In this document: piece after piece, positions 7,599 to 32,732 of the stretch
How positions within the stretch are numbered: position 1 is the stretch's first letter
Layout: every line of letters begins with the position of its first letter
Assembly (NCBI GenBank): GCA_973895155.1
Contig: OZ316895.1
Span: 20,722,803 to 20,786,802 of the forward strand
Length of the DNA: 64,000 nucleotides
Source: Marsupella aquatica
Lineage: Eukaryota; Plantae; Marchantiophyta
Reading direction: 5' to 3'
Translations under genes and position numbers: made by a program
Notes under the pieces: model-generated
Told to the model about the DNA's origin: nothing
The model's input: the letters and a program-made list of their open reading frames with translations, nothing else
Database searches by the model: none

Positions 7599-7660
7599 AA
7601 CCCCAATTTAAGGAATACTGAAGTATTAGATTAATTCCAATTTTATCTAAATATTATAAG
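7599..7660 (+). repeat. Left terminal inverted repeat of the giant transposon
   Basis: AACCCCAATTTAAGGAATACTGAAG...AATTCCAA...CTAAATATTAT matches the reverse complement of ~32677-32732. Confidence 0.85.
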
Positions 7661-7810
7661 TTAATGAATGATCAACCTCTTTAACATTTGGTGGGATAGT
7701 CAAAAACTTCAAATGTTTTGTTGCAAGATCTTTATAACAATGCATCACTAAATGACATAGTACCTCTTGATCCATGCACAAATCCTTAATTAAATTGTCA
7801 TTCATTGTTT

Positions 7811-8345
7811 CAATTGTCTATTTAATTACTATAGGGTTGAATACAAAAAATATTGACCACCCTTTACAACAATTAATAGGATTGTTGTATATTACAATGT
7901 CTACTGGACATTCATTTGAATGTCAATAATATCATGCCTTAATATCACCAAACTAAGGCCCGGGCACTGTCTAACTAATATTATATCTTAAATAAACTAA
8001 CCAACTAACTAACTTGTCTATTTAATTACTATAGGGTTGAATACAAAAAAAGATTGACACGCACCAGGGTGCGTGACCTACAATCATAGTATCACCCTTT
8101 AATTTGTTAGTTTCTATTGTTTTGACTCAATCAGGCATGGAACCATATAAAATCAAAAATCATTGAAAGTTGAGTTCACTTGAAGGTGTAACTATAATTA
8201 TTATTTATTAATAGGATTGTTGTATATTACAATGTCTACTGGACATTCATTTGAATGTCAATAATATCATGCCTTAATATCACCAAACTAAGGCCCCACT
8301 AACTAATATTATATCTTAAATAAACTAACCAACTAACTAACTTAG
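7811..8345. repeat. Subterminal direct duplications inside the left end
   Basis: ~140 bp ATTAATAGGATTGTTGTATATTAC...CAACTAACTAACTT at ~7872-8015 and ~8207-8343; TTGTCTATTTAATTACTATAGGGTTGAATAC at ~7814 and ~8014. Confidence 0.8.
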
Positions 8346-8437
8346 ACGATAAGACTTGTCTAAACTTGAGTTCTCTAGCTACTACTATTCTGAGTTGCCT
8401 TTTAAACTGTATGCTAAACTACATGCTTCATTACTGT

Positions 8438-11400
8438 CTAGGATTTGTCACTTGCTATGCATGTCAAGAGATAGTCTCTAATTGCCTTGGCAGCAACATT
8501 CTTTGGAATTCCTACCAGCCGTGTCACTGGTCCTTTGCGTGCTTTGAAACACCACAAGGCAGAGGAAACATCTATTGTCTCAGCTTCCTTGTATATTGAA
8601 GTTGGATCACATTCCCATTTCTTATCCCAAGAATCTGCCCACCACTCTCTTGGCTGCCAGCCTGATTGACCACGTTGCTTCTTTGCCATAAATGGTCTAA
8701 ACCACTCAACGCCACATACATGAGTAAGAAGGTTTTGTTCATTCACTGGTCCTTCTACCACATCTGTAACAACTAACCCCATATGGACGGGATAAACATC
8801 CAGGTCTGAGTCGTCCGGCCGTACCAACACATAACAGCCCTTCACAACATCAACCCTAGGGTTAAAACTCTCAGGAGGTTTATCTTTTGCTGGTCCCACA
8901 TAATCCACTGTTGCCTCCAACTCACATGCCACATTTCGATATTCTGGTGGAACGTGCTCTCTCCATATTGATAAAGGCCAAAACCCGTATTCCAAGTTGT
9001 GTGCACCTTCAGGTTCATATTGCACCTGCTCACCCTGTAGAGTATCTACAATGTCATTCCAATAATTGATGAGAGTTGTCCAACGTCGCTTTGGTTCTTC
9101 CTCTTTTGTTCGCTTTAGAATAAACTCAAAGAATGACACATGCTTCTTCAACCCTGTCAGCACTTTAGGAAGCAATTTCAACTCCATCATTGGTAGCCGT
9201 TTGGGCACCCCAATTGGGATGTGAGGACTTTTGTCATCTTTCCATGACCACATTTCAATACCTTCCTTGGGTAACCATCCCTGATCAGTTGACTTCATTT
9301 TGTATTGGAAGCATGGCATATTATCATGACGAACATAGAACCTAAACAGCCTGGGTTTTAAATGCCCCACCCCAATGCCTCAGGGCCCTTCAACATGAAT
9401 AGAGCTAAGTAGTTTTTGAAATCTGGGACCTCTTGTAGAAAATGTGGGATTGCATTGGGTGTCCTTGCTCTCATGAACAAGGACATTAACTCAGGCAATG
9501 AGTATGTGGGGTTATGCATCATAGACTCTGAAAAATGCCCGAACATACTGTCAACGTCCTCATGAGTATGCCCAACCACCATAAAACCAAGATGAACCTC
9601 TTCAAACACCTCCCTTGCCGTCAACAATGACAAATAAGCCATCATATATTTGTTCTTGTTGTCTGAGGCACAATTATCCAGTTGTAGCTTCAATACTCGT
9701 GGAAGGGGCCTGAACTTTGGTGCCTCAGGTGCTGCATCACAATGTAACAATCTCATAATGCTTTTAAATAAAACCCTAGTCAGACCCTAAACCCCAATTT
9801 AGGGTTTAGGGTTTAAACCCTATTAATGAAACCTTGGCTAGGAGGAGCAACAACTACACAAAGTAGAGTGTCAGTGTGTGTGAGCTTATATTATTAAATA
9901 ATAATAAATTAAAGGATTGTGAGTAAAGTACCTAGGCTTGAGATGTAGGCAATGTCATCCTCAAATGCTCTAAGGACACTTGCCTCCAAGATATCTGCTC
10001 TCCCAAAAAGGAGGTCTTTAAAAAGACTTGTTGAGTCTGGCCCCTCCACAAGTGATTTGATCATTGGATTTGGGTTTTCCAACATCCTTAGTATTGAATC
10101 AATTGACCCAATAGTGATGTTGACATCACCTGGCCACACTCCAACATGATATTGGGCTATGGCCTTGGGACTATGATGACCATGAGTAAGGATACCAGTG
10201 ACAGTAATTGGGAACTTTTGGGCACCATCCACATGCTTAGGATTGAAGGGCATTCTTGGGAGAGCTGTCTTTGAATGATCCATCTTATCATGAATAAGGC
10301 ATAACACTTCCTTTGGACGATGGATGGACTCATATCTCCAGGTATGATAGCACATTCTTTGCTGTGTGTGGTCTTGGTGATGTTCCTCCTCGTCACGCCT
10401 TAGGCCCTCTAACTCTTCCTTAGCTCCTGTAAGGTTTGCTTTCCGTTGAAGCAACTCACTACAAGTTGTACACTTTGAAAAGTTGTTGCCCTTTTTGTGA
10501 CGTGAGAACTCCCTGAAATACATCTGATGTAGATGACTCAAGGTGGGTTGGGAAATTGGAGGAAGACCAGCCTCCTGGTTGACAACATTAACCCTGTTTC
10601 TAATATTCTCCCAAGTAAGATTTGTTGGCAATTCCCTCAAAACCATCCTTGTATTATCTGCCATGGTTCTCAACTTGGTTGGATGATGATCAGTTGCCTC
10701 CTCAATAATCTCTTTCATTGACATGAACGCTTGAGATAATTTCTCGGACATACGCCTTTTTCCAGCATTACCATGGGTACCCATGTTCATTCCAGCCATC
10801 ACAGTCTTCTTCAAGGCATAAAATTGAGTCTTTCCTCTTGAATGAATGATTCTCCATGCCTCCAAGCACAATACTTTGCCCTCCACTGCTAGAATCCTTT
10901 CTCCAGTACCCAAGTGTATTGTATTTTTAATAGCCTTGATTTCCTCCTCCTTGCGCTCCGCAAAAGATTTTGACCACCACTTTTGCCTAATTGCCATAGC
11001 CAAGTTGCGGTCCAAATATTGGCAACAATGTTCACTACAACAGTCCTTAGTGTTTATCAACAACACATCTTGACGTGCCAAAGATGTGTCTCTTCTAGAT
11101 GTCTGGGAAGATGGACTCTTTCTTTTCCTACTTTTATGGACGTAGGACCGCTCGCCACTTGTTGGAGATGTGTTCCCTCCCATAACTTGCCTGATGTTGT
11201 GGAAAGACAACAAGTTGCCATCCTTGGCAATGAGTTGGTCCATCGACCAAGCTTTTAAGCAATCTCTATGCTTCAGATGATCTATGGTAGCTCCCTCAAC
11301 AAAATCATTGATCAGAATTCCCACATGTGTATTCCCAAGGGTGACATCCCCAAGCTTCACTATAGGATCTAGAACATGTATAGTTGCCACTGCAAAAATC

Positions 11401-11846
11401 AACTTGTTCTCATCCACCACCTTTACAGGCATGCCCATCCACAAGGCCTTTGGTAAAACTACTTCCACACCAGACCGACTCTCATTATGGTTGTTCCCAT
11501 CAGAATTTTGATTGACTGGATCTTGATCATCACCAACAATGCCAAACACATCCTCCAATTCCATGGGAGCTCAAAAAAGCTGATTCCTTTCCCATACAAG
11601 GTAACCCCCAATCATGTCCTTCAAAAGTTCGCCATCTTCGCATAGAATGGTCTCGTCAAAAACTTCCTCCAATAGAAGAAGAACTCTGTCCGCCCCAAGA
11701 GGAACATTGTGACAAACCCTGGAAGGATCAAGACTTATCACACGACCTTTTCCAACCTGTTTCTCACGTATGCCTATAATAACTTGTCCGCCTTCCCTGA
11801 TCCAGACTGTCGATGTCACCATAATAATTATGATCCTGCACATCAA
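8438..11846 (-). pseudogene. Sola1-like (DUF7869-type) DDD transposase, spliced, with one in-frame stop and one frameshift
   Basis: ORF 11571-11846 joins 9932-11564 in frame through a TGA. GT-AG intron 9732-9931 joins in frame (..SL-A-PEAP..). Frameshift near 9370 into ORF 8438-9370. Catalytic-type motifs HDKMD, LQLDNCASDNKNKY and GHTHEDVDSMFG, plus Cys/His-rich KCTTC and CC.EHCC segments. The 5' exon was not located. Confidence 0.8.
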
Positions 11847-11899
11847 AGAATATCACTGTAAGCATACAGGCCTGTCACGTCCGTCAATTTCACTGCACT

Positions 11900-12480
11900 A
11901 TCCTGTCACGTTGGTCAATAAGCAGAATGTAGTCAATGCATTGCGCTGCACGCGTGACCCTAGAGGTACCACACATACTGGCAACAGACTATGCATGGTC
12001 CATCAGTCATTTCAAATGAATGAGAACAACCACAATCGATTACGATCAATCATTTCACATCCACTCAGAACAAATGAGTGGACAGTCAATAACTACTGAG
12101 GACAGTAATGCTAATAAGCGCCAGTAAAACGTCCATGAACTGCATTGTCCTATCACGACCGTCAATAAGTAGGCAAAATGTAGTCAATGCACTGCCCTGC
12201 ACGCGACTAGTCGCGTGACCTTAGTCAGAGGGTGTAGGGATAACAGGGTCTACGACGTAGAAGCTAGAAGGCTAGGCCCAAACTCTAGCTCGTACTTGGT
12301 ACTTCATAAGTAAGATACGATTGCGCGTGAGACAGGAAGATACAATTACGGATCTAAAGGCATCACACATACCGGTAACAGATTATGCATGGTCCGTCAG
12401 TCATTTCAAGTGAATGAGAACGACTACAATCGATTACAAACAATCATTTCAACTCCACTCAGAAAAATGAGTGGACAGTA
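11900..12480. repeat. Imperfect duplication upstream of the transposase
   Basis: GTCAATAAG...AATGTAGTCAATGCA...CACGCG..GTGACC and CACACATAC.GG.AACAGA.TATGCATGGTCC...AATGAGTGGACAGT each occur twice (~11914-12090 and ~12160-12480). Confidence 0.75.
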
Positions 12481-12864: not shown

Positions 12865-13380
12865 ATGGATGTTCCGATGGATGATTCAGAAGGTTTGACG
12901 TATCAAATTCATGGTACTCCTTACAGAATGTGTTAGCAATGTAATATAATGTTTACGGTGACTAAATCAGGTCAAATGTTTTGTGAGAGACGACATTGTT
13001 CGCCACATTTGTCGATGGAAGATCAGATGGAGACCAATCCGACAGAGATGACTACAAAGATGGCATCAGGGGAGAAGTTAAAGGGCAAAGCCCTTGTGGA
13101 ATCCATTTCGAGGGGGAAGAAGTTGAAGGCCAGAGCATGCGTCGAATCCATTTCGGGGGAAGCAGCAGCAGACGCTAAGACAGTCAAGAAGGAGGCCAAG
13201 AAAGTGGACGCACCGAAGAAAAGGCAATTAGAGATGAACGAAGATTCTGATTTGTATTACAGAAAGAGCAAGCCGAGAAAATCTATGGACGTTAGGACTT
13301 GGGCAAAGGAAGAATTTCTGGATTCAAGGGAATCCACACCAGACACCGATGAGTGGATGCCTTCATCTTGGAATGACTGA
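12865..13380 (+). CDS. Small charged hypothetical protein inside the transposon (possibly 2 exons)
   Basis: 143-aa Lys/Glu-rich ORF 12949-13380 with internal repeat GEKLKGKALVESIS/GKKLKARACVESIS. A possible exon 12865-12892 plus intron 12893-12970 joins in frame. Confidence 0.4.
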
Positions 13381-13624
13381 CTCGATCGAAGTCAACAATA
13401 TTTTGAGTAGTCGAAGATTAGAACTACAGATTCAAGAGTAGTTCAAGTTAGAACTTGTTATAGATACTGTGTAGCTTAATTTTGTCCCATGGAAAATAGT
13501 GTTCGAAAGACCAGGTCAGTTAAATTCCTGGATAGTGCTAGTGGATATGGATTCCACATCCAAAGTCCTTCGGGATCGATGTAACCATTTTTGCAATCAA
13601 CGAAAAATCATCCACGAGATTCCT

Positions 13625-15135
13625 CTGACCTCTAAAACATTTTTGCGACCGGGCGCGTGATGAAACGAAGACGTTGGTTTTAAAATAGATTTCTGGCCAA
13701 TTCGTTAGGCTGTTGACTACAATAAACAATATCAAAAGACACGAGATAAATTGGTTCACGCGACTGTGCGCGTGATGAACTACATGTGTAACCGAAAAAT
13801 CAGGTCATCCTACTAAGTTGAGATCAGGCAGATCTGAGAAATAAAGGGCGATTACGTCTAAGAGTGCAGAGTTTTCGCTGACCTCTAAAACACTAACACG
13901 ACCGGGCGCGTGATGAAACGAAGACCTCGATTTTAAAATATATTTCTGGCCAATTCACTAGGCAGTCGACTACAATAAACAATATCAAAAAGACCTGTGA
14001 TAAATTGGTTCATGCGACTGTGCACGTGATGAACTACATGTGTAACCAAAAACAGGTCATCCTACTAAGTTGAGATCAGGCAGATCTGAGAAATAAAGGG
14101 CGATTACGTCTAAGATTGCAGAGCTTTTGCTGACCTCTAAAACACTAACGCGACCGGGCGCGTGATGAAACAAAGACCCCGGTTTTAAAATATATTTCTG
14201 GCCAATTCACTAGGCAGTCGACTACAATAAACAATATCAAAAAGACCTAAGATAAATTGGTTCATGCGACTGTGCGTGTGATGAACTACATGTGTAACCA
14301 AAAAAATAGGTCATCCTACTAACAAGTTGAGATCAGGAAGATCTGAGAAATAAAGGGCGATTACGTCTAAGAGTGCAGGGCTTTTGCTGACCTCTAAAAC
14401 ATTAACGCGACCGGTCCCGTGATGAAACGCAGACCTCGGTTTTAAAATAGATTGCTGGCCAATTCGCTAGGCTATCAACTACAATAAACAATATCAAAAG
14501 ACACGAGATAAATTGGTTCACACGACTGTGCGCGTGACGAACTACATGTGTAACCAAAAAAATAGGTCATCATACTAACAAGTTGAGATCAGGAAGATCT
14601 GAGAAATAAAGGGCGATTACGTCTAAGAGTGCAGAGCTTTCGCTGACCTCTAAAACATTAACGCGACCGGGCGCGTGATGAAACGCAGACCTCGGTTTTA
14701 AAATAGATTTCTGGTCAATTCGCTAGGCTATCGACTACAATAAACAATATCAAAAGACACGAGATAAATTGGTTGAACACGCGACTGTGCGCGTGACAAA
14801 CTACATGTGTAACCAAAAAATAGGTCATCCTACTAACAAGTTGAGATCAAGAAGATCTGAGAAATAAAGGGCAATTACGTCTAAGAGTGCAGAGCTTTCG
14901 CTGACCTCTAAAACATTAACGCGACCGTGCGCGTGATGAAATAAAGACCTCGGTTTTAAAATATATTGCTGGCCAATTTGCTAGGCTATTGACTACAATA
15001 AACAATATCAAAAGACACGAGATAAATTGGTTCACGCGACTGTGCGCGTGATGAACTACATGTGTAACTGAAAAATCAGGTCATCCTACTAACAAGTTGA
15101 GATCAGTCTGATCTGAAAAATGGACCTCGATTACG
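13625..15135. repeat. Internal tandem array, ~6 units of 252-258 bp
   Basis: CTGACCTCTAAAAC starts at 13625, 13878, 14130, 14387, 14643, 14901; each unit has two ACGCG-N6-CGCGT-like palindromes. Confidence 0.95.
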
Positions 15136-17644
15136 TTTTATTTTTCTAGGCCGTCGACTATAATAAACAATAGCAAAACATACGGACAACTATACTTGAA
15201 CGCCATAAAATTTTAGACTAGAGAATTCATTCGGATCCTCTACTAGTACTTCTGTATACATTGCTTCTGTAGTTGCCTTAAATCACGCATTCAATGCATG
15301 AATTGAGTCAATGAAGTTATGGTCCAATTTCTCACTCCTCCTCGTCCCAGCCAACTAAGCCTCCTCCTTCGAACTCCAATTTCCTTGAGTATCGTGACCG
15401 AATCCCACCACCAGAGAATGACAACTTGTTGATCGTATCAAGATCAAAATCCTCGACCAGACAATGATTTCAGAATAGCCGCTCTTTGTTGATCCGCTAG
15501 AATGCTTCGATGAATGAGGCAGACTATGGAGGTTCTAAATGTTTGTCGTCTCGCTTTGTCGCAACTCTCTCGCTTGATCGGATGTGCTCTCCCCAAGATT
15601 GAAGGTGATACAACAAGAACTGCGCCAGCGTTGCTTGAATGAGCTCCGCCTCCGACTGGAATAGTTGAATGACCCAATCTGCTCCACCTCAAATGTGCCT
15701 TGGATCAGCCTTTGTTGAGAGCCCAGCTAGTATCCTGGTCAGGAGAAACTGAAAATGAAGAATGACCCGTGAGCAATGAGATCAGTCTATTGACTCCATG
15801 AAGGATGTGTTCATCTGGACTCGATTTTGATTTTGAAAATTGGTTGAGTCTCCAGTCATGAGAATCATTGTACAGGATTGATTTTGAATATCGGTTCTCG
15901 CCGACCGTGAGAATCGTTTTACGTTGTTTAGAGTATGGGTTTGAATTGGCAAGATAGAGAGTGGAGTACGGATCCGGATCCGACGGTCTCCACTACCAAA
16001 ATGGAATGATTTTGAAGTTCGCCTCCACTACGTGATGGAATGATCGTGAGAAAGTTGTCATTCATTCACATTTTGGATTTGAATTGGCAGATATAGTGAA
16101 GATACGGATCCGGATCCGGATCCGGGGGTCCCCACTAACAATCTTTCATAGTTGCATAATTACTGGTTTAAATTCAAATTGGCGATCAAATAGAAATCTC
16201 CTTTAGTATGGCAAATCAAAAGGAATCCGATAATCTTTTTTTCACGATTGCATAGTTTGTTAAGTCGATGGTGGAGTGTACAGAGATCATCTGGAACCTT
16301 CTTGTTGCTAGGCTGTTATTAGGGTTATGCTAAAACAATACCCTAATTAGTCCTTCCTTAGTGTCGGCGCCCACGGTCTCGAGTTCACTATTCATTGTTG
16401 TTGTTTCTCGCTCCCTAGACTTTCGCGTGCCTACTCTCGTCGCTCTCGCTCTTGCTCTTGCTCTCGCTCTCACTCCTGCCTTGGATTTCATTTTTGTCGT
16501 TGCAGCTCGTTCGTTGTGGTCAGGTGCTTGTCGGCGCGTTGCAGCTCTTAGTAGTTGTCGATTGTTTCGACCAGGAGCTCGTTGGCGCGTTGCAGCTCGC
16601 ATTTACAGCTCGTATTCACTTCTAGTTTGCTCGAAGGGATTCTTAGGAGCCCGTTGGGTTCGTTGCAGCTAGTTTTTTGGGAGTGCTTGTATCAGCTCGT
16701 GTCAGCCAATTTTAAGCTCATATCAGCTCGATCAACGTGTTTCAGCAGCTCGAACTACTTTTTTGCAGTTTGTTTCAGCTCCTTCCATTCAGCATTCAGG
16801 TTTGTTTCACCTCTTTGAATCTTCAGGTTTAGTGCGCTTTTATTCATGCTCAATTTGCCTATCCACAGCTTTCATTGTACTTTTGAAAGAGTGTTTTTAA
16901 CTCGGCATAATGAGTTCCTTAGCATTAAGCACATGTTATTCAATTGGTGGCAGCGAAGCTCTATGTATAGAAGTATAGAAACTGTGTTGTTGTTGCTTAG
17001 CATATTAATATCTTCAATCTTATATTTACTTTCTGGAATGCCGCAGCAAGGTCTTCAAGTGCTTGGACGTCAATCTCTCAGACGATTACATCAATTTTTC
17101 AGAATTCAGGTGCAATTTCTACATTTCCTGCTGGTGTTGATTGTTGTTTGCTAAAATTTCTCTTGATTGTTAAGCTGAGTTTTCATAATGCGGTTTGTTT
17201 GTAAACTCAAATATGTGTGAATCATACAAACTCACTAATTAAAATACAACCTGAATCGTCTTAAGTAAGTCATTACAAACTTGCACGTTGTGAATTTAAT
17301 CATATAAACTCTCATGTTATGTGAATCTCATTACACTGAATCCTTTAATTGACGAATACAACCAGTAGACTGCTAAATTGAATCATCTTAGCTGAATCAT
17401 TCTCTAAACTTCTGATATATAATAGTTTCACAATGACAGAGCTCAAACATCTGAATTATTGTAAAGTTCATGAATGAATACAAATGAATGAATACAAATG
17501 AATGAAATCATGCTTACTCGGATTTCCTTGTCCGTACGGGTCAGTAATCACAGTTGTATCACTATATTATTCTAGTGTCCAAAAGTTGTTTGAGCTGTTG
17601 ATGCGACCAGTCGCGTGAAAATATTGTGAGGTTCCATTTAGGAT

Positions 17645-19000: not shown

Positions 19001-19065
19001 TTAACTTACGTGACCAAGCGCATCGTATGTCTTCTAACAATGTTTTGTGATATGATAAAAGTAGG

Positions 19066-21820: not shown

Positions 21821-24496
21821 TGTCACCTGCTTATCAAACAATTTACACGACAAATACGTATTTACTCCTAAAAAATTTTGTTATCGTATGACGGGAACGT
21901 GGAGGGACGCTATTAGGATTCTATTATATGTAGGATGAGTATGTTTATTTCCGCTCCCGGAAATGTAATTTTTGATCAAGTCTACTGACTAGCCGCTCTG
22001 CTTTTGATCAAGTCCCATGGACTACGCCACACACACACTCCTACTGGTCATCGGTGGAGTGTTGTCACCACCCCTCCCTACTCACATGGTTGACCAAACC
22101 GTGCAAGGATTTCTTAGACGTTTCTTGGGGAAAGAACACAATCTTGAACCAGGAAAGGTAACACCACACCCAAAACTTGAGGAATCAAACCAAATCCATA
22201 TCTTTTGGCAAAACGTCGTAACACATTGCAAGGACAACCCGGCCTCCTGCCGTATGCCCAACTACTGCCTCACTGGGGCAAGTGCTACACCTCTACCTCA
22301 CTACTCTGGTTTGATTCCCTCTTCTAGCTATGAGCTAACTTCCCTAAGTAAACACTAGACTGAGTTCCCCCCCTCACTACTCCGGGGCTCTCCCCCTAAA
22401 TACCAAGAAAACACACCAAAGCACCCCTCACGGGGCCACAACGATGGCGGCTTACCCTAGCGGCGCCGCTAAACCCTTCACTAAGAAACCCCTAAACCAA
22501 AAGCATGTGGCACACACATGCTTCTAAAACCCTAAACCCTAAACTAACAATGGGGCCGATGGTGCCTTCGACGGCGCCCCAACATTACTCTGTAAACCGT
22601 GAAATTGCAAGGAACCCCACAATGGCCGAAACTAGGTGCCCTTCCAGTTGCACTTCTGAGTTCACCCCTGGATAGCCCTCCTCCTCCTGATCATGAATCA
22701 CTCAACCGCTCTTGAAACGGACATCGGACGACCAAGTTATGGTCGTTTCAGTATCTTGTAAACCCAACTTCGTCGGGCCCTAACTTGCTCATCCTGGCTC
22801 CGTTTGAGGAGCGTCGCCTCTTGTTGGAATCAGCTCCGCGAGCTCTTTCCAACAAGCCCGTGAGTGACCCCTCACAAAAAAGTTGGAAAGTCAAGGGGCC
22901 ATACAACCACGTCCGTACGACCACTCTAATCCTCCTCTTCACTCACGGTGCCCTGGCTTGAGCCCGGTGAGTTGGTCTCCTCATTAGTCCTCCTCCTCAC
23001 TCACGGTGCCTCCTCCTCACTCACGGTGCCCTGGCTTGAGCCCCGTGAGTTGGTCTCCTTATTAGTCCTCCTCCTCACTCACGGTGCCTCCTCCTCACTC
23101 ACGGTGCCCTGGCTTGAGCCCCGTGAGTTGGTCTCCTCACCGCTCTCCATTGGAGTGGATACTACTCTGCTAAACAAGGACTCACTTGAGTCCACCACCT
23201 CCTATCCTATCTATCTACCTTGCCTACCAGCCTCAATTCTCCTGATCGCCACCTCTGGTCCGTTGTAAAAGGGTCCGTTGTAAAAGGGGGGGCCCTATAA
23301 TTGTCGAAACTAAAATTTTCTCAGAATTCACTTCTGAAAACATATCTGAGGAGCCCTCCTCTTCCTGATCACGGTTCCGTAAACAGTGCACAAAACGGAG
23401 GTCAAACGGCCAAGATATGGTCGTTTAAGTTTTCACGGGGCACCGTCTCCCTCCGTTTCGTCCGTACAACACCAGGGGGCCCCGGCTTGCAAAACACAGA
23501 TCACGGGGTCCCCGTATGTGTTGCTACCTCCTCCTTCCAAAGCCGGGATCTCCTGTCGTACGGACGTCCGTACGGCCTCAAAAACCCCTATATTCTCAAA
23601 AAACGCGATCAGTTGTATCTCCCCCGTCTTAGCTCCGTTTTGGCCGTGTGACACATCGTTGGATTCAGCTCGGCGAGCTCATTCCAACAAGCCTGTAGAC
23701 TCCTGATTTTGAGATGGTCAAAAATCTGATGTTCGTACAACCAGGGTCCGTACACACGTTGAAAGCAAGCACAAGAGGAAAAGGGTTTAGGGTTTAGGTA
23801 TGGGTGGAAACCCCACAAGTGAGAATAGAAAAAAAAGGGAAGGAAGAAAGTGTGAGGGCCCCTTCTACGGAGTGCCCCTCTACGAAGTGGGGAAGGGAAA
23901 GAGAGCAAAAAACCATGTGAGGACCACGCAAAGGGTGAAGGGGAACACAAGTGTGGGAACCCCTTCCTTCTAAGGGCCTCCCACCATCACTACTCCAAGA
24001 TTGCCTAGTTTGCCGTTTTATGGGCGTTGAGGTCCCTCGAGATGTCACTGTTTGATATAGACCTAAAATTAAAGTTTCGCATGAGGCTCATTGAGGGCTT
24101 CAAAATGAATCCAAACATGACCATGTTTGGAATAGTACTAGCACAGCAACGTCTGTTTTAAGTTTCAACGTTTTCTATATTTTGGTCATTCTTCCCGTTT
24201 TGTGCCTTACATGGAGCCTCCGACCAGCCCCCACCCCTCCAAGATGCCCACACCTTGGCTCCAAGTCCTTGGGTTGCCTTGTGGCCTCCTCCCCCTCAAT
24301 GGTTCCCTTGTCATCCATCACCGCCCAACACCCCTCTCAACTTCGTTTCGTCTGGTTGTCGCATCCATTTATTAAAACTAACAAAAATGAAAATTTTGAA
24401 AATCCAAACACTTTTACTACACCTACTTGTCTTTCTACTTATATACGCAATTATAAGTTATCACTAAGTTACTACCGGGTTTGGGGCCCTGTCACA
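21821..24496 (-). repeat. 3' LTR (~2.6 kb) of the Gypsy element, containing a 78-bp tandem repeat x3 (~22945-23140)
   Basis: Starts TGT directly after the PPT on the minus strand; non-coding; CCCTGGCTTGAGCCC at 22951, 23029, 23107. Confidence 0.65.
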
Positions 24497-26054
24497 TAGC
24501 TCCCCTCTTAATTGCGAAGTGCCCCCGCGAGCACCATACTCCTCCTCCGTGTAGTACTTCTTTAGGCGTTCTTGATTGATCCGTGTGTTGAGTAGTTGCC
24601 CCTCCAATGTCTTGAGCTGAACCAATCCGTTGGAGTAGACGGTGTCTACTACGTGGGGCCCCATCCAATGTGTATGCAGCTTCCCCGGGAAATGCATGAA
24701 ACGGCTGTTGTAGAGGAGCACCAAATCTCCCTCCTCAATTCCAAAGAAATATTTCTCCGGATATAGCTTCAAGCAAGTCTCCCGGCACCGTTGAAAAGTC
24801 AACCGTAAATGTTCCATGCGATTGACCCGCTTGCCGTAGACAGCAAAATCATCAATGAAGATTTCTGGGAACCTCCGAAGGAAATCATGGAATATGTTCA
24901 TCATAAGCCGCTGAAACATACCAGGGGCATTGCACAACCCAAAAGGCATTCTTTGGAATGCAAAAATCCCCCACTCCGTAGTGAAAGCCGTCTTGAGTTG
25001 ATCCTCCTCCCGTATCCAAATCTGGTTGTAGCCGGAGTAACCATCTAGGAAGCTGTAAATCTCCCAACCGGCCACCATGTCTAACATGATATCAGTAAAT
25101 GGCAGCAGGTAGTGATCCTTCTTGGTGGCGTCATTCAGCTTCCGGAAATCTTGGCACACCCGTATCTTCACCTTACCGTCTGGCCCCTTCTTCTTGGGCA
25201 CAATCAAGATGGGTGATACCCACTCACTGTGCATGACCGGATAAATGAAGCCCGCATCCAACAACCGATCAATCTCCTCCTTCACCATGAGTGAGGACTT
25301 GGGATTGAGACGGTATTGGCGGTGCCTCACATGCCGTGCCCCGGATATCAAGTCAATGCTGTGCTCACCAAACTCAGGTGGCACTCCTTCCAAATCTTGG
25401 TGGCTCCAAGTAAAATACGTCTTGGTACTCCATTAACAACTCTTGAATAGTACGTTTCTCCGTAGCATCCAGCTTACTACCGATGTTGAGGGTCTTGCCT
25501 TCACCCACCTCCACCTTTGTGTACTGCTTCGGCCTGATCACGTCTAGCTTGTTACGTGTCTCCTCATCAAAGGTCTCCTCCAACCGTGCTAGTCGCATTC
25601 CTCCATACACCGGTGCATCGCTATCCTGCTGGTCTGACTGAGTTGGGGGTGGGTCTTTTGTCACATGGGCCATCATTTCTTCCATGTCAGATTCTTTGTA
25701 TTTGTAATGTGACAGTAGCTCCTCTCTAAATTCTTCATCCAAGAGGTCATTCAACCACTTCTCCCTCCGTTCATCGTCAAACAGGATGGCTTGAGCTTCC
25801 TGTCCCTCCTCACTCGTTCGTTCCTCCTCCTCAGTATCAACAAGCTGGGCCATTGGTGGTGCAAGTGGTTCTTCCCTGGTTTTCCTCTGCACAACATAAC
25901 TTTGGCGACGTGGTGCTTTTGTAACTCCCTCCTCAAGGGTAGCAGCTTGTGGGCCAAAGACATCTTCGTCCGTCAGATGAGAAATCAACTTTACCATGTA
26001 TACTTCGTCCTCGTCCTCATCTGAGGTGACCTCTGAATCATATTGCTCTTCCAT
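24464..26054 (-). pseudogene. pol: Gypsy pol fragment (protease-RT linker, RT, integrase tail)
   Basis: ORFs 25374-26054 and 24464-25393 are frameshifted; RNase H and the integrase core are absent. Confidence 0.85.
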
Positions 26055-29028
26055 AGAGGTAGTCTCCCCTTCAGGTGACTCTGCTGACCAGGGAATGATA
26101 ATAGTGGGAGTTCCAAACCAAATTGCGGGTCAAAGGAATGATTGATTGCTTTAAGCTCGACAAGATGGTGCTGAAGCAGTTGAGAGATGCGTTGAGTGGT
26201 TATCCGAAGAAGTGCTTAAATGTAAATATTAGTAATGATAATTTGTTGAAGAAAATCGACCCGATATTCTACAGGTTGGTGGAAGGAATACAGAAATCAA
26301 TTGATAGTCAAGGAAACCAACTAGTGCGGCCGGTCGGTGAGAGGCTGAAATTGCGATCCCTTCAGGATATACAAAATTTTGGGTTTGCAGACTGTATCAT
26401 ACGTGAAGACAAGAACCTTGCGAGCTTGATTTATTTTGATCCCTCATCAATGGGAGATTTGCGTCCACCAAATTGCTCATTCTTATTTCGTGCTACTAGC
26501 AAGATAGGGGCAAAACCACACCATGTGGTTATTATTGTAGCCTCTCCCGTTGAGTCTTACTTAATCAAACGGGAATTAGGGAAGTACACACACTACGTTG
26601 CTGTCAATAGCCATTATATTCAGAAGCGACCGAAGGAGAAGAAGCTTATTGTAACCTACGTTTTTCACAACTTGGCCTTCAGCACAATGGGCGATCCACA
26701 AGCCCTCGAGTTCCAATTGGTCTCCAAATATCGGATTGAGAAGATAGCCAATTTTGAAGAGAGCGGCGAGTTCACGACACCTTCCCCAGAAAAGATACTT
26801 CCATTCTTTGAAAGTATTGTTAGTCAATTCGTCCAATGTGGGGAATGGGCTATATGCTTTGGTGAGGGAACAAACTTGATCCAGTGCTTAATGGTAAGTT
26901 TTGAGATTTATATTTTGGGGTTTCGATTTTAAGATTATTTAGATTATTATATTCTCAATTAATATTGTGAACTAATTTCGGCTTTTTTTACAGGATGCTG
27001 GATCCAATGTAAAATATTACTGCCCTGTGGCAACGCATAGGGAGTTGTCTTGTTTCTTGCAACACACCACGGCGACAATTGATACAACGCTGTCATTGAT
27101 TGACCCAGTACGGGCTAGTATAGAAAAATGTATAGATAAATTAATGAAGTACCGTCCATCCGTAACTGCTCTCAGGGCTGATGTTTTGGATGTCCTCCGC
27201 GAACAACATATCCCTGATAATATTTGTAATCAATTATTGCAAGAGTATGCACTCTTTGAAGATTCCGATCGATTGTACATTTGACCAACGGAGTACCCTA
27301 GTGGGCCAATCCAAGGTAGGTTACTTTTGAAACCTCTTACTTTTTATTGCATCACGCAAACATGCGCGTGGACATTCATAACATTTCTTTTCACGCAAAT
27401 ATGCGCGTGAGTCATTCTTATCAAATGATCTGATTTTATTCAGATCAAGTCGACTGCGGCTTCAATGTTGAGGATGCAGGAAGCAATGGTGATGCGGATG
27501 GTGAGGGGGAAGGTGACGCGGAAGGTGACGCGGAAGGTAACGCGGATGGGGATGTCAATGACCAAGATCCAGAATGGATGACCGATACACAGAACGACGT
27601 CGGAGATTCTGACAATAGAGGAGATGAAGAGAGTGACGGAGAGGAGATGAAGGACGTTGAGGACGCTGATGAAGAGGACGAGGAGATAGAGGGTTCTGAG
27701 GACGTTGAGGACTCTGATGAAGAGGCCACACAAGAGCCTCGACATGAGGTGGACCGAGAGGAGGCGGCCCGGCAGGAGGAGGCCAGAGAGGAGGCGGCCC
27801 GGCAGGAGGAGGCCCGGCTGGAGGAGGCCCGGCTGGAGGCGGCCCGGCAAGAGAAGCTTCAAAAGAAGGAGGCAGCCCGGCAGGAGGTGGCCCGGCAAGA
27901 GGCGCTTCAAAAGAAGGAGGCTAAGAAGAAAAAGGCAGCAGCTAGAAAAGCAACTGCCGCGAAGAAGAAGGAGAAAGCCGAGGCTGAGAAAGCCGAGGCT
28001 GAGAAAGCGGAGGCTACGAGAGTCCTTTTAGTGATGGAGGCAAATAGGGCCAAGGCGGAGAGTGTGGCGGCTGAGAGGCTGCTGGCCAAGAGGATGGCGA
28101 ACAAGACCGCAAGACCGGAGAGGGTGGAGGCGGAGAAGTTGGAGGCAGAAAAGGTTGATTCCGCAAGACTGGAGAGAGAAGAAGCCGCAAGACTGGAGAG
28201 AGAAGAAGTCGCAAGACTGGAGGCAGCAAGGAAGGAGGCCGAGAGGGCCAAGGATCTTTTGCTTATTCCTGAGGCACAATGTCTACCGAAAATACAGTTG
28301 AATTTAAAGAAGCCTTCTTCACCCTCAGTTCGCCCGGAGTTTGAATTTAACGATCCACCCTTATGTACGGTCTTGTTGGATGATTGGAATAAATATTCAC
28401 CGGAGCAGCTTCGAGCCCAGGCAGTCCTTGCTTTGCAATATTGGAAGGGTCTTTTGATTACCAAGGAGAAGACTGCCACTGCATCTAGAATGGAGACAAT
28501 CATCAATAATGTCCGCTTTTCCGAGAATCGAGTGCAAGACCTGGGAATGTCTTTGGCACCAGACTCGGCTCAAGTCGTTAAGAGACTAACAACTGACTTG
28601 ACGCGATCGGGTTTGTGGTCTTGACCCTGATATATTGCAGAGGTCACTCGCGCAAAAATTGTGGCACCGGATATTTTGGAATCGGATTCCCAGATTGTGG
28701 AATATTTGAATCAAATGCCACAACCATTTGAAGGTCTTCCCGCCTCATCGCTCCAACCTTCGCAAACTGGTCCGGTGGAGCGATCACTGCGGTCTCGAGG
28801 AGGGCTGAAGGATGTTGTCGCGATTGAGGCACCCAAGAGATCAGCTGCGAAAAGGCCGGATCCACCCAATCCAAAGGTCATTCGCAAGCTATAAGCTTAA
28901 AGTTTCTATTATAGACGTCATTATTTTATTATTGATTTGTTATTGTTTCTGTTTTCTGAGGTAGAACCCTTAGGCTATAACCTCAGTACGTTATTTGAAG
29001 GCGTACTAAAATCTCTGTTTTTTGCAGT

Positions 29029-29720
29029 TTTTTGAAAATTTGGCTAGTCGAATAGATCAATGCCTTGATCCTTCTAAGGATATGGAAGAGCTATTGACCA
29101 AGTTCTTACAACACTCGATCAAGAGGAAACATATGATGTGTCTGAGACCGCGCGAGTTGCTCACTGATGATATAATTAACGCTTATTTAAGTTTTCTCGA
29201 ACTGATTCTCGATAGAGTTGGAAAGTCAGACCTTGTCAAATTCTTCCAAACACACCATTTTGAGCTTCTCTCCATGGATCCTACCATTTTCGACGAGGAG
29301 AGAGCAGCTTGGACAAAGGAGTTTCCGCTAAAAATCAATGAATACGACAAACTGGTCTTTCCAGTACAGAATGTTGTGAAAGAACATTGGTCATTGGTAG
29401 TTGTGTATCCGAAGGAGAAACAGTTAGAGTACCTAGATTCTCTAGTTCATAATCGACAAAATCCTGGGGTGCTAGATATTGTTGGGAAGTACTACGCCGA
29501 CGAAATTGGCTGGAGAACTGGTGTCAACTTGGATCTCTCAGGTTGGGAACGGATATATCGGAATGATATTCCTCACCAGAGTGACGGCCACGTACAGTTG
29601 TGGTGTGTTTATCTTGAGATACGCCAAGTGCTTGTGTCGAGGAAACAAAATTAATTTTTCTGCGGATCAAATTGAGAAATTCCGTAGGGAGATAGTCTTG
29701 TCGTTATTTGACATGGACTT
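29029..29720 (+). pseudogene. Ulp1/C48 SUMO-protease domain of the cargo gene
   Basis: LTDDIINAYL, EHWSLVVV (catalytic His), YLDSL (Asp), PHQSDG then CGVF (Gln/Cys) after a frameshift near 29590. Confidence 0.85.
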
Positions 29721-30084
29721 CCGCAAGCCGACGTCCGCAAGTAATCTAGTTATCGGGATCCGTGCTGCTATGATTGACATTTCCGGCGGAATTCCAGCAC
29801 TGAACGACCGTCTTGTACAGGTAATACACTTCATTTCAGTGTCTCTCTTTGTAGTCACGCGACCGTCCGCGTTATGAACTTATTTTCATTTCTTAATATT
29901 TTACAGAAGCCTATCCCGAAACCCCCTGATCGAGTATCGAAGGCACCAGTCCGGAAGTCCGGTGATCGTCCGGAGGCGGGAAACAAACAGACCGTTCTAG
30001 TACGTTCTCCAAACCCTGCGGCACAAAAATCACAGGTACAGATGGTGCCTAATCCATCAGCAAAGAGGTCACCGGTTCAAAAGA

Positions 30085-30812
30085 GACTTGTAATTTTTGA
30101 TCTGAATCGGGTACTTATCTGGTCAGAGAAGATCAGCCCTGGGATGCCCATTTGGTCAAGGGGTGTGAGACAGACGCACAAGGTCATCTATCCAAGGCCT
30201 GATTTAATGGAATTTCTTGAGAAGGTGGCAGATCTATACAACATTGCGATCTGGTCGTGCATGTTCAAACGGAATATTCTATCTTGTGTAAGGCTGATAC
30301 TTTGACCCAAAGTTTTGAAACGTATTAAATTTATATGGGGACAAGAATCAACTCGACTTATTGGGAAGAATAATAATGACATCCCCTTATTTGTCAAATG
30401 TCTCTCCGACATTGCCGCCGATATTAAAGATTACAACATCGAGAATATCATTCTTATCGATGACGCTACATATAAGACGAGCCTTAATGACTTCTATTCA
30501 TCGCTGTATCCCGATGCATATTTTGGGCTCGATGATGACCTGTTTTTTAGAAAGAAACTATATCCATATCTATGCGACATGTCAATTGACAAGTTGACAT
30601 TCCACGAGCTCCTTAGTGGATATGGGATTCCAACGTTCTCTCAAGAAAATCTTGAGAAAGATTATATTGATAAGACGAATCTTTGGAGGAGAAATGTGAT
30701 CATTCGTAATCAGGGGAATAAAGACCATTTAGAAAAGTTTGACAAATTTATGAAATACTTATCTGCCGAAAAAGACCATGCTATAGAAGCCCGGGATAAG
30801 TCCAATAAGTAA
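30085..30812 (+). pseudogene. FCP1/NIF-like HAD domain 1
   Basis: LVIFDLNRVL, RPDLMEFLE, IAIWS, FVKCLSDI, NIILIDD; in-frame TGA at 30303. Confidence 0.75.
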
Positions 30813-30943
30813 ACATTTATTATTTATTATCAATTATTATTTATAAATTGATTGAAATTGAACTTTATATTTTGGGAGTGACGCGCCCGGTCGCGTGGTT
30901 GTTTGCAATTGCATAATATGAGAATCGAATTGTTCATTTATAG

Positions 30944-31650
30944 GTGTCTAAGTGGAGCAGGTCGCGTCAACTTCTAGTTTTAGGACTGGAAACTTCCTGT
31001 GCTCTGTTTCAAAATATACTCCTCAGCTCAAGTCGACACCCGGAATTCGTATCGGATCTCTATGTGTCATTCCGAGGCCGCATCTTCATGATCTTATAAA
31101 ATTCTGTTATGATCATTTTGATGTGATGGTCTGGTCTATTCTCGACGATAAACTGGTTTATCAGATACTTTCAGAAGTGTTGTCGAGCACCGACTTGTCG
31201 CAGCTGATATATGTGTTCACGCGGGATCATTGCTGGAATCTTGGTTATGTGAAGAAAAATTATAAGACTGTTGTCTTCAAATCTATCGAGAGACTACGTG
31301 ATATGTTTCAAGATTATCGACCAGAGAATGTAATCCAGATTGATGCCTGTCCTTCCCATACATGCTAGACAGCTGTATGCGGATTATTGTTTGCTAAGTC
31401 GTTTCAAGGATCGTTGGATGATGTCTTTTTGAGGGATGACCTCATTCCATATTTACGAAAGCTATCAAATTCAGGGCTTTGTCTTGCGTTCGCTAACAAG
31501 TTTGATTATCCCATCTGGTCGATTAGAAATCTACATCGAGATTGGGATCTGAATGAGGATATGTGGGAGCATCTGTACGTGCAGAGACATGCGGATCAAG
31601 TTCTTATCAAGCACTTCAACAGACGTCACTTATCAATGGCCAGAGTGTAG
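30944..31650 (+). pseudogene. FCP1/NIF-like HAD domain 2
   Basis: PRPHLHDLIKFCYDHFDVMVWS, VFKSIERL, ENVIQID; in-frame TAG at 31366; probable N-terminal frameshift. Confidence 0.7.
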
Positions 31651-31736
31651 AGGATGTTTTCTCTGTAATATGTGATGCGACCATTCGCGTGACTACATCC
31701 ATACGGGCTCATGCATCTTCTTGTGTTTCTCTACAG

Positions 31737-32464
31737 GAGATTCATTGCAGCAAAGAAAATGGGCTCATAGTTTTAGACGTGGAGCATCTACTCTGTTACA
31801 CTGCACCGCACTCCCGACTGATGGCGGTCTCAACTGGAATTCGGATTGGGAATATATACATTTTTCCAAGGCCTCATCTTCACAAATTCTTGAGATTCTG
31901 TTTTGAGAATTTCGATGTAGGGATCTGGTCCTCTCTTGGGAAGAACCTTTTAGATCATATTTTAGCATCTATTTTTACTGCGATGGAAATGGCCTCATTT
32001 AAGTATATTTGGGATTAGTCTCATTGTTACTTTGCGATGGGGTGACATCAAATAAGCAGATATTTTTGAAGTGTTTTGAGAAGGTTGGAATTTATACGAA
32101 GGCGTATCTGCAGCAAAATATAATGCTTATCGAATCCGATGCATTTCATGCTTGTTTCGATCCTGTTGTTGGATCATTATTTCCGCCCAAGTATTTTGGG
32201 TCGGTCGACGACAGTTTCCTGATTAACTTGCTGATTCTATATCTTAGCAAGCTAGCAAACTCTTGTGAGCCACTTGTCATTGCCAATGGAAGAGATTATC
32301 CTGATTGGTAAGTTAAATCTATTTTTAGAGATTATGATTATAATCATACTCTATGGGAAGACCCTGTGATTCAGAGGCATGGAGATAGATATCTAGTAGA
32401 GCAATTTAACAGACGCCCAATTTTGGACGCTTCCAAAATAATAGTCAGCATGAGATCAGATTAA
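31737..32464 (+). pseudogene. FCP1/NIF-like HAD domain 3
   Basis: LIVLDVEHLL, PRPHLHKFLRFCFENFDVGIWSS, QNIMLIESD; frameshift near 32010 and stop at 32309. Can be spliced in frame to domain 2 by intron 31645-31736. Confidence 0.7.
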
Positions 32465-32676
32465 TTTGTATTGTTGTTCTAGAAACCATTTGTAAACTCC
32501 TTATATACTGGTTATCATATATAAAGGATCTCAAAGATTTATTTCTCTATTATTATTATTTGCGTGAACATGTCTCTTGGTCCCGTCAAGTTGGATTGGT
32601 TAAAATGTGACATTGCAGTCATTTTCAGGGTTTCACGCGCAGCCACGCGTCATGTCACCCCTTTTTTATTAAAATA

Positions 32677-32732
32677 ATAATATTTAGTGAATTTTGGAAT
32701 TTCCAAAGTTCGGTTTTCCTTAAATTGGGGTT
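32677..32732 (-). repeat. Right terminal inverted repeat of the giant transposon
   Basis: Ends TTCCTTAAATTGGGGTT, followed by the TSD TGAG. Confidence 0.85.

What the first reader, a model, noticed from the sequence alone, without database searches (positions are those of the whole stretch)
7599..32732. Giant cargo-carrying Sola1-like transposon with a protein-modification toolkit
Seen: TIRs (17 bp perfect) and a TGAG 4-bp TSD bracket 25,134 bp (~21 kb without the Gypsy insert). A DDD transposase points left, a cargo block points right, and two tandem arrays lie between them. Known: Sola elements make 4-bp TSDs and have DNC..NKN...GH...D-type catalytic motifs; Ulp1 cargo is known from Mutator and CACTA elements. 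Inference: a Sola-type element carrying F-box-like, ParB-like, SUMO-protease and FCP1-like modules together is not a combination I recognise. It may be an undescribed giant transposon family whose cargo manipulates host ubiquitin, SUMO and phospho-signalling.
Basis: partly seen in the sequence, partly recalled or inferred. Interest (0 to 1): 0.92.

Follow-up and report, generated by a model that had tools for sequence, protein, structure and literature searches.

The report
Giant plant transposon with self-guarding cargo
This 25-kb cut-and-paste jumping gene, likely present in dozens of near-identical copies in a plant, carries a passenger gene with a probably dead bacterial-type DNA methyltransferase and rows of one 16-letter mirror-image DNA word that the passenger protein likely grips to shield the element from silencing, a design already proposed for giant seaweed transposons.

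Summary
The element is real. TIRs (17 bp perfect, 59 bp at 81%) and a TGAG duplication bracket 25,134 bp (20,893 without a truncated Gypsy piece). Contig depth steps up at the left TIR to roughly 20-60 times the flank, over transposase, spacer and cargo alike. The transposase is DUF7869 with Sola1-profile motifs. (1) The ORF right of the Gypsy is the C-terminal part of the ParB-like gene; a 48%-identical relative folds as a beta-class N6A/N4C DNA methyltransferase (CcrM Z 11.9), and DPPY is absent in 10 of 10 sequences. (2) A palindrome, ACGCG-N6-CGCGT, occurs 25 times inside the element (arrays, introns, near the right end) and never elsewhere in the window. This matches the 21.5-kb Sola1-1_Ec32 of Ectocarpus (AACCG termini, 4-bp TSD, opposite-strand ParB-methyltransferase gene), so it is not an undescribed family. 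The plant version differs by a degenerate methyltransferase and added Ulp1, three pseudo-FCP1 and weak F-box-like modules. Best mechanism, inferred: VANDAL-like self-protection, not manipulation of host signalling. New variant of a known kind; interest 0.58.

The parts
7595..7598 (.). left target-site duplication TGAG
   Evidence: sequence
7599..7657 (+). left TIR (AACCC..., 17 bp perfect, 59 bp at 81%)
   Evidence: a unique flank contig of run X1 stops at 7626
8438..11843 (-). Sola1-like DDD transposase (DUF7869), about 1,070 aa, candidate intron 9931-9732. This copy has a stop at 11571-11573 and a frameshift near 9370 that the high-depth contigs lack
11892..12479 (.). duplicated upstream region of the transposase, with one palindrome at 12201
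12937..13380 (+). 147-aa lysine-rich ORF of unknown function
   Evidence: no Pfam hit above cut-off
13539..15121 (.). tandem array 1, 256-bp unit x5.9, holding 9 ACGCG-N6-CGCGT sites
17596..18414 (.). tandem array 2, 175-bp unit x3.6, holding 8 ACGCG-N6-CGCGT sites
18416..20196 (+). cargo gene 1: three internally repeated F-box-like units (weak assignment)
   Evidence: self tblastn E 3e-9; Pfam F-box E 0.03-0.08; Skp2 E 0.47; Atlas no hit
20272..21853 (+). cargo gene 2, N-terminal part: ParB-like domain (WILGGQY; GGQH in a relative) and helical linker, intron about 21511-21604
   Evidence: P0019 50% identical; P0011 bridges it to the methyltransferase-like part; Atlas DUF3723 0.95, ParB_N 0.91
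21879..26119 (-). truncated Gypsy retrotransposon (one LTR plus RT); about 85 codons of cargo gene 2 are missing at this point
26120..26893 (+). cargo gene 2: beta-class N6A/N4C DNA methyltransferase fold with degenerate catalytic motifs (YFDPSS; ICFGEGT)
   Evidence: the model is of relative P0006, 48% identical
26994..28894 (+). cargo gene 2 (inferred continuation): acidic and E/A/R-rich repeats; palindromes in the intron at 27354 and 27393
   Evidence: P0018 has a methyltransferase-like piece followed by an acidic region
29027..29820 (+). Ulp1/SENP-like SUMO protease domain with His, Asp, Gln and Cys present; a frameshift near 29590 in this copy
   Evidence: a high-depth X1 contig over 29211-29658 has 4 gap letters
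29908..32457 (+). three FCP1/NIF-like HAD domains lacking DxDx(T/V) (DLNRV; FRTGN; DVEHL); palindromes at 29857, 30881, 31675
32635..32650 (.). palindrome ACGCG-N6-CGCGT 82 bp inside the right end
32677..32732 (-). right TIR (...GGGTT)
32733..32736 (.). right target-site duplication TGAG

Best explanation
This is one decayed copy of a likely recently amplified, about 21-kb cut-and-paste Sola transposon whose opposite-strand passenger protein (ParB-like domain, likely dead DNA methyltransferase, SUMO protease, FCP1-like repeats) likely binds the element's own 16-bp palindrome and would thereby shield it from host silencing. Shown: the ends and TSD; the DDD transposase; multi-copy depth over all parts; the methyltransferase fold (in a 48%-identical relative) with lost catalytic motifs; an element-specific palindrome in arrays and introns; CpG kept where the palindrome lies and lost over the transposase. 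Inferred: (1) the transposase cuts at the TIRs and leaves 4-bp duplications; (2) the ParB-like domain reads ACGCG-N6-CGCGT as a dimer, like ParB on parS; (3) the dead methyltransferase domain serves as a second DNA grip that covers the CpG-rich sites; (4) Ulp1 removes SUMO from silencing proteins nearby, as guessed for Ulp1-bearing VANC/KIU proteins, and the FCP1-like and F-box-like modules act as docking decoys rather than enzymes; (5) host CG and CHG methylation overtook this copy, which then gathered stops, a Gypsy insertion and a deletion.
For: Ends and TSD. In run X1 a unique flank contig (depth 11.8, 0 differences) ends 28 bases inside the left TIR, and the longest element contigs have depth 399-729 over transposase, spacer, F-box-like, methyltransferase-like and Ulp1 parts, 34-62 times the flank; run X2 gives 21-46 times. 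Breaks at 9370, 11573, 20671 and 31366 are absent from high-depth contigs. Relatives join the ParB-like, linker and methyltransferase-like parts (P0019, P0011, P0006). The AF2 model (pLDDT 74.6) matches beta-class amino-methyltransferases in the top 11 VIA rows (CcrM Z 11.9, rmsd 3.8, 171 aligned) and in all 14 listed Foldseek rows at E up to 0.001. Palindrome with at most 1 arm mismatch: 25 of 25 sites lie inside the element and none in the 43 kb of flanks plus Gypsy; none at spacing 5 or 7; 8 sites outside the arrays against 0.08 expected (maximum 1 in 60 shuffles). CpG o/e is 0.29 over the palindrome-free transposase and 0.77-0.97 over spacer and cargo, 1.26 in array 1. The same logic is proposed for Sola1-1_Ec32 and Plavaka PAG3 and shown for VANC.
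Against: No binding, expression or methylation data. ParB identity rests on a motif and Atlas features; the AF2 model of that part failed (pLDDT 38.9) and HMMs gave nothing. This copy's own C-to-T changes fall in CG (16) and CHG (12) of 34 listed, against 24% and 17% background, and most lie in spacer and cargo, so protection was at best incomplete here. Genic-looking stretches elsewhere in the window also reach CpG o/e 0.8-0.95, so the cargo's CpG may reflect recent capture. No contig spans the element, no second TSD was seen, and transposase depth is about 1.5-2 times cargo depth. The fusion of the Ulp1 and FCP1-like exons to the ParB-methyltransferase part rests on candidate GT-AG introns only.
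Confidence: 0.52

Rival explanations
1. The palindromes are handles for transposition. The ParB-like protein (or the transposase) binds them to bridge or compact a 21-kb element and bring its ends together, or to drive the two divergent genes, without any role in silencing.
For: Sites lie near both ends (32635; a 2-mismatch site at 8059) and upstream of the transposase and both cargo genes (12201, arrays, 20206). ParB proteins bridge DNA (established knowledge).
Against: Most sites are central or intronic, not subterminal. It does not explain the Ulp1 and FCP1-like modules or the CpG contrast.
Confidence: 0.22
2. One reading: the cargo is a set of enzymes acting on host ubiquitin, SUMO and phosphorylation signalling at large.
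For: Ulp1 keeps His, Asp, Gln and Cys. NIF domains pass the Pfam cut-off. A DUF7869-BRCT-Ulp1 fusion occurs in locus L012.
Against: None of the 3 NIF domains has DxDx(T/V). The F-box signal is sub-threshold. These modules follow a DNA-binding-type core and carry palindromes in their introns.
Confidence: 0.1
3. The cargo is a functionless hitch-hiker, or the TIR pair comes from two independent small elements.
For: This copy has many stops. No spanning contig. Transposase depth exceeds cargo depth.
Against: The breaks that could be checked are private to this copy. Relatives at 24-58% identity keep long open frames. The palindrome ties both arms together. Depth is high and of one order across all parts. 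The same layout exists in Ectocarpus.
Confidence: 0.08
4. The methyltransferase domain is active through a non-canonical site and marks the element with 4mC or 6mA, as proposed for the algal proteins.
For: Beta-class fold; the Asp at the motif IV position is kept in 9 of 10 sequences.
Against: PPY is missing in 10 of 10, and the motif I region reads C/I-F-G/S-E/K-G without the acidic residue.
Confidence: 0.08

Closest known systems
Sola1-1_Ec32 of the brown alga Ectocarpus (PMC12477816; passages and supplement rows read)
   Same: 21,549 bp against 20,893 here; AACCG...CGGTT termini against AACCC...GGGTT; 4-bp TSD; ParB-like plus N4C/N6A methyltransferase gene on the strand opposite the transposase; self-binding and self-modification proposed; its best Repbase match is the moss Sola1-1_PPa transposase.
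   Different: Land-plant host. TIR about 59 bp against 282 bp. Methyltransferase motifs are degenerate here (their state in Ec32 was not seen). The cargo has about 2,400 codons if one gene, against 1,104 aa, with Ulp1 and three FCP1-like domains, plus an F-box-like gene. The passages read mention no palindrome for this element.
Plavaka elements of the red alga Bostrychia, PAG2/PAG3 (10.1101/2025.02.11.637652; passages and section 8 read)
   Same: 17-19-kb DNA transposons with a ParB-like accessory gene next to tandem arrays of inverted repeats and an N6-adenine methylase gene; self-binding proposed.
   Different: EnSpm/Plavaka transposase; ParB fused to a 2OG oxygenase, methylase fused to SET; no Ulp1 or FCP1 in the text read.
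VANDAL/VANC and Ulp1-bearing KAONASHI genes of Arabidopsis (PMC5735166 abstract and Results part 2; PMC13317346 passages)
   Same: TE-encoded accessory protein, sometimes with Ulp1; short target motif amplified in tandem arrays and introns of the element; sequence-specific anti-silencing (shown there).
   Different: Non-TIR Mutator elements; VANC has DUF1985/DUF287 domains and a non-palindromic 8-9-bp motif; no ParB or methyltransferase fold.
Sola superfamily in general, including Physcomitrium Sola1 (PMC10741241 and PMC3845634 passages; PMC5751038 supplement HMM parts 59, 60, 67)
   Same: DDD transposase, TIRs, 4-bp TSD; some members exceed 15 kb; the Sola1 profile's D-n-c-a-g-q-N-k-n and f-l-x-x-g-H-s motifs and their 36-residue spacing match.
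   Different: TSD TGAG is not the AWWT given as the Sola1 hallmark; most Sola elements are 2-9 kb.
Beta-class amino DNA methyltransferases (CcrM, M.BceJIV, MboIIA, RsrI, PvuII, rotifer N4CMT)
   Same: Fold.
   Different: Catalytic DPPY/SPPY and FxGxG motifs are degenerate; identity 6-14%.

Membership tests
Sola superfamily | DDD transposase of Sola type | tested here: met
   DUF7869 E 1.9e-33; LDNCASDNKN and FMVVGHT match Sola1 profile states 82-94 and 113-123 with the same D-to-H spacing of 36, compared by eye
Sola superfamily | terminal inverted repeats | tested here: met
Sola superfamily | 4-bp target-site duplication | tested here: met
   TGAG on both sides, one site only; feature from PMC10741241
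Sola1 (canonical) | AWWT target preference (PMC3845634) | tested here: not met
   TGAG at the single site seen; hence filed as Sola1-like. Sola1-1_Ec32 is also described with a different bias
Sola1 (canonical) | groups with Repbase Sola1 rather than Sola2 or Sola3 in a transposase tree | not testable with these tools
   no Repbase sequences on hand; the Sola2 profile part read did not cover a catalytic motif
Sola1-1_Ec32-type giant Sola | about 21 kb, AACC-type termini, 4-bp TSD | tested here: met
   20,893 bp without Gypsy; AACCC against AACCG
Sola1-1_Ec32-type giant Sola | opposite-strand gene with N4C/N6A methyltransferase domain | tested here: met
   fold of relative P0006, 48% identical to the window ORF
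Sola1-1_Ec32-type giant Sola | ParB-like domain in that gene | tested here: inconclusive
   GGQH-type motif; Atlas DUF3723 0.95 and ParB_N 0.91 with 118 shared features and 35% of members; low-confidence model and no HMM hit
active beta-class amino methyltransferase | (D/S)PP(Y/F) motif IV and FxGxG motif I | tested here: not met
   0 of 10 sequences covering the motif IV column have PPY; column assignment inferred from order in the fold; motif consensus recalled
Ulp1/SENP protease (C48) | His-Asp-Cys triad and oxyanion Gln | tested here: met
   EHWSL, YLDSL, PHQ, SCG; Cys lies past a frameshift in this copy
FCP1/SCP phosphatase | DxDx(T/V) motif I | tested here: not met
   DLNRV, FRTGN, DVEHL; consensus recalled
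F-box protein | F-box domain above cut-off | tested here: inconclusive
   Pfam 13.3-14.5 bits against cut-offs of 20.5 and 24.3; Skp2 E 0.47
VANDAL/VANC system | non-TIR Mutator element with a VANC (DUF1985/DUF287) gene | tested here: not met
   TIRs and DUF7869 transposase; no such Pfam hit among the 35 ORFs scanned
VANDAL/VANC system | element-specific motif in tandem arrays and introns | tested here: met
VANDAL/VANC system | accessory protein binds the motif and causes hypomethylation | not testable with these tools
   needs binding and methylome data

The most novel reading that the evidence does not exclude
A land-plant lineage of giant Sola transposons built a VANDAL-like anti-silencing machine independently, from prokaryote-type parts. 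A ParB domain reads a parS-like 16-bp CpG-rich palindrome, and a dead DNA methyltransferase masks it. A SUMO protease and three dead CTD-phosphatase domains on the same 2,400-residue chain strip silencing marks and dock RNA polymerase II at the element. The system would have driven a recent burst to dozens of copies, and the ParB-like module would be shared with Starship DUF3723 cargo.
Probability: 0.27. Interest if true: 0.85.

Novelty: new variant of a known kind. Interest (0 to 1): 0.58.

Why it matters
VANDAL is the only transposon known to bind and modify its own sequence, according to the Bostrychia preprint. The ParB-methyltransferase accessory genes of algal giant transposons are an untested second candidate. 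This element extends that design to a land plant with CG and CHG methylation, supplies an exact candidate site (ACGCG-N6-CGCGT) and appears to exist as a young multi-copy family with intact frames, so binding and anti-silencing can be tested directly. It also suggests the methyltransferase can be kept as a pseudoenzyme. If it works as proposed, it is a natural sequence-specific epigenome editor.

Tried and rejected
No whole genome is held, so other copies, their TSDs and the empty site could not be read. Names and sources of P0001-P0005 could not be looked up. No RNA holder was listed; this says nothing on expression. phmmer, profile, Pfam, NCBIfam and PHROGs searches did not recognise the methyltransferase-like or ParB-like parts; only the fold did. 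The ParB-region model was poor, and its Foldseek and VIA results are meaningless. A search for full-length fused relatives of 796-2270 aa found none among 7957 candidates, which is weak evidence. No relative of P0019 in viral contigs and none of the transposase core in prokaryote genomes. The Atlas gave no usable hit for the F-box-like ORF (best 0.76). P0017 is a chance repeat-protein hit and was dropped; P0018 was left out of the alignments. A1 used 10 and A2 used 11 of the 13 hits. Considered and rejected: the TIR as a chance telomere-like word. A 15-mer with one mismatch lies in the transposase intron at 9792, but the terminal pair extends to 59 bp, has the TSD and coincides with the depth step. 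Also rejected: the 26120 ORF as a separate gene (relatives join it to the 21605 exon). Literature: Bao et al. 2009 (Sola description) is not held, so what it says about cargo in moss Sola1-1_PP is unseen. PMC7466625 has no 'Sola' and PMC6431247 no 'Sola', 'Ulp1' or 'ParB'. Searches found no paper on a plant Sola with this cargo. Supplements of the two bioRxiv preprints were not seen and may list related elements.


Full report
Observation. TGAG stands at 7595-7598 and 32733-32736. Inside it the two ends match perfectly for 17 bp (AACCCCAATTTAAGGAA) and at 81% for 59 bp, E 4e-7 within the window. Of 4 perfect inverted pairs of at least 17 bp and at least 1 kb apart in the window, only this one has a 4-bp direct flank; 20 Markov shuffles gave 4 such 17-mer pairs in all. 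The span is 25,134 bp, or 20,893 without the Gypsy piece at 21879-26119. Two arrays (256 bp x5.9; 175 bp x3.6) lie between a leftward transposase and rightward cargo. The host is a plant by inference (class I chitinase, Gypsy and Copia elements; CG plus CHG decay). A seed-free plant is likely but was not established.

One multi-copy unit. No genome was held, so I laid run contigs. 7 runs hold the left 5.9 kb; 4 of them hold half the words or more, from 2 studies and 2 organism codes. In X1 a 6.4-kb unique contig (depth 11.8, no differences) runs from the flank to 7626 and stops 28 bases inside the TIR, as expected where a repeat begins. X1 may be the window's own source. The longest X1 contigs have depth 698-729 on the transposase, 399-456 on the spacer, 492 on the F-box-like part, 434-459 on the methyltransferase-like part and 476 on Ulp1: 34-62 times the flank. 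X2 gives 21-46 times. The tool warns that contig depth is no copy number, so 'dozens' is a rough reading. These contigs differ from the window by about 1-2%. They lack the stops at 11573, 20671 and 31366 and the frameshift at 9370, and a contig over the Ulp1 frameshift has 4 gap letters (only 40 difference rows per table were shown, 747 and 942 were not). Against: no contig spans the element, no second TSD was seen, and transposase depth is about 1.5-2 times cargo depth, which allows cargo-less or diverged copies.

Transposase. Pfam DUF7869 (E 1.9e-33). With a candidate intron at 9931-9732 it has about 1,070 aa; P0001, P0002 and P0004 lose similarity at the same donor and L001 reads through it. 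The motifs are HDKMD, LDNCASDNKN and FMVVGHTHEDVD. The published Sola1 profile reads i-l-y-s-D-n-c-a-g-q-N-k-n and I-e-l-k-f-l-e-p-g-H-s, with 36 states from D to H, the same as here (PMC5751038 supplement parts 59 and 60, compared by eye). The Sola2 part read held no catalytic motif, so Sola2 and Sola3 were not excluded by test. TGAG is not the AWWT called the Sola1 hallmark. I file it as Sola superfamily, Sola1-like.

Cargo. The ORF at 26120-26893 had no Pfam hit. 13 proteins matched it among 1.84 billion (one, P0017, is a chance hit). Five of them carry upstream the exon found at 21605-21853, with about 85 further residues that the window lacks: the Gypsy insertion and a deletion split one gene. 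P0019 joins the 20272 ORF to the GGQH-type ORF, and P0011 joins that to the linker. An AF2 model of P0006 (48% identical to the window ORF; 13-row alignment; pLDDT 74.6) matched beta-class N6A/N4C DNA methyltransferases. Foldseek gave 17 matches at E up to 0.001; the 14 listed are M1.HpyAVI, CcrM, TTHA0409, MTA1 and MboIIA chains. In VIA the top 11 rows are CcrM (Z 11.9, rmsd 3.8, 171 aligned), BceJIV, MboIIA, RsrI, PvuII, rotifer N4CMT and kin. The motif IV position reads FDPSS, LDCSV, FDSTL and the like: Asp in 9 of 10 rows, PPY in 0 of 10; motif I is also altered (consensus recalled, columns placed by order in the fold). It is most likely a pseudoenzyme. The ParB call is weaker: the model failed (pLDDT 38.9), HMMs were blank, and the Atlas gave DUF3723 clusters at 0.95 and a ParB_N cluster at 0.91 with 35% of members. 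Downstream lie acidic and E/A/R repeats, a Ulp1 domain with catalytic residues (SENP2 E 1.4e-8) and three NIF domains, none with DxDx(T/V). Candidate GT-AG introns allow one gene of about 2,400 codons; the joins beyond the acidic region are untested. A separate gene at 18416-20196 has three mutual repeats with only sub-threshold F-box similarity.

Palindrome. ACGCG-N6-CGCGT with at most one arm mismatch occurs 25 times, all inside the element and outside the Gypsy; spacings of 5 and 7 give none. 17 sites are in the arrays. 8 are not (12201, 20206, 27354, 27393, 29857, 30881, 31675, 32635), against a mean of 0.08 and a maximum of 1 in 60 shuffles; spacing 8 gives 3 and spacing 9 gives 1. Four of the 8 are in candidate cargo introns, one is before the ParB-like start codon and one is 82 bp from the right end. 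CpG o/e is 0.29 over the transposase, which has no site, and 0.77-0.97 over spacer and cargo. Against a simple reading: genic-looking 2-kb windows elsewhere also reach 0.8-0.95, and of 34 listed C-to-T-type changes of this copy 16 are in CG and 12 in CHG context (background 24% and 17%), mostly in spacer and cargo. This copy was methylated there too.

Mechanism. Shown: a mobile-element anatomy, a family with open frames, a methyltransferase-fold pseudoenzyme fused to a ParB-like domain, and an element-specific fixed-spacing palindrome. Inferred: the ParB-like dimer binds the palindrome; the dead methyltransferase helps grip or mask the CpG-rich sites; Ulp1 and the decoy domains counter silencing locally. 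I give the element itself about 0.92 and this mechanism 0.52; a role in end-bridging or gene control 0.22; action on host signalling at large 0.10; an active non-canonical methylase 0.08; no function or two elements 0.08.

Comparison. I reached the closest paper through the scan's own notes (e1-6729154 and e1-9571947 name it) and then read it. PMC12477816 describes Sola1-1_Ec32: 21,549 bp, AACCG-CGGTT termini, 4-bp TSD, best match Sola1-1_PPa, and an opposite-strand 1,104-aa ParB plus N4C/N6A methyltransferase gene proposed to bind and modify its own element (passages and supplement rows). The Bostrychia preprint reports ParB-like PAG3 beside tandem inverted repeats in Plavaka elements and names VANDAL as the only proven case (section 8). 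VANC targets sit in tandem repeats and introns (PMC5735166 abstract and Results part 2), and some VANC genes carry Ulp1 (PMC13317346 passages). Sola elements over 15 kb and a moss Sola are known (PMC10741241 passages). Note e1-7364000 reports a decayed element of this layout in another moss-like genome (unchecked, not independent evidence). PMC4738411 (passages) lists ParB-HTH-Dam fusions in chlorophytes and chytrids, a different methyltransferase group. PMC9033089, PMC3845634, PMC5751038, 10.1101/2021.09.26.461848, PMC6431247 and PMC9156397 were seen as passages; PMC7466625 returned no passage; Bao et al. 2009 was not held. Searches found no description of a plant Sola with a pseudo-methyltransferase, Ulp1, FCP1-like and F-box-like cargo; subscription papers, Repbase entries and preprint supplements were not seen.

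Verdict. Observation confirmed; interpretation partly supported. It works like the algal ParB-methyltransferase giant transposons and, by inference, like VANDAL. It is a Sola-superfamily member, not a new family. New here: the land-plant host, the degenerate methyltransferase, the added modules, a defined 16-bp site and an apparently young family. New variant of a known kind; interest 0.58.

Noticed in passing
L012:1-1932: A DUF7869 transposase piece, BRCT and Ulp1 in one open frame in a metagenome contig with a eukaryote-like neighbour gene: a second Sola-type/Ulp1 pairing.
   Followed up: partly
P0019 residues 200-410 (relative of window 20677-21510): The nearest Atlas clusters are fungal DUF3723 (0.95), a conserved Starship cargo gene of unknown function (PMC9156397 passages); DUF3723 may be a ParB-like accessory shared among giant elements.
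   Followed up: partly
window 32913-37210: Copia-type element with 120-bp direct repeats 97.5% identical, integrase and RT pieces, 176 bp right of the Sola end.
   Followed up: no
window 9784-9812: A 29-bp hairpin in the transposase intron contains a 15-mer one base off the TIR, among CCCTAAA-like words; also present in high-depth contigs.
   Followed up: partly
window 5600-34600, runs X5 and X6: Run X5 (another organism code) holds transposase, spacer and F-box-like pieces at depth 10-24. Run X6, under the same organism code as high-depth X2 and X4, has cargo at depth 5-9 and about 90% identity. Copy number may differ sharply among close relatives.
   Followed up: no
window 12937-13380: 147-aa lysine-rich ORF with an internal repeat between the transposase promoter region and array 1.
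   Followed up: no
window 44179-44742 and 55000-55527: Host-type genes: a mitochondrial carrier and a class I chitinase with chitin-binding domain.
   Followed up: no
window 50623-51275: Cluster of 57-, 63-, 64- and 78-bp tandem repeats outside the element.
   Followed up: no
L001:471-3456: Plant-like relative of the transposase (39-44% over the core) that reads through the position of the window's intron and has CpG o/e 0.86.
   Followed up: partly
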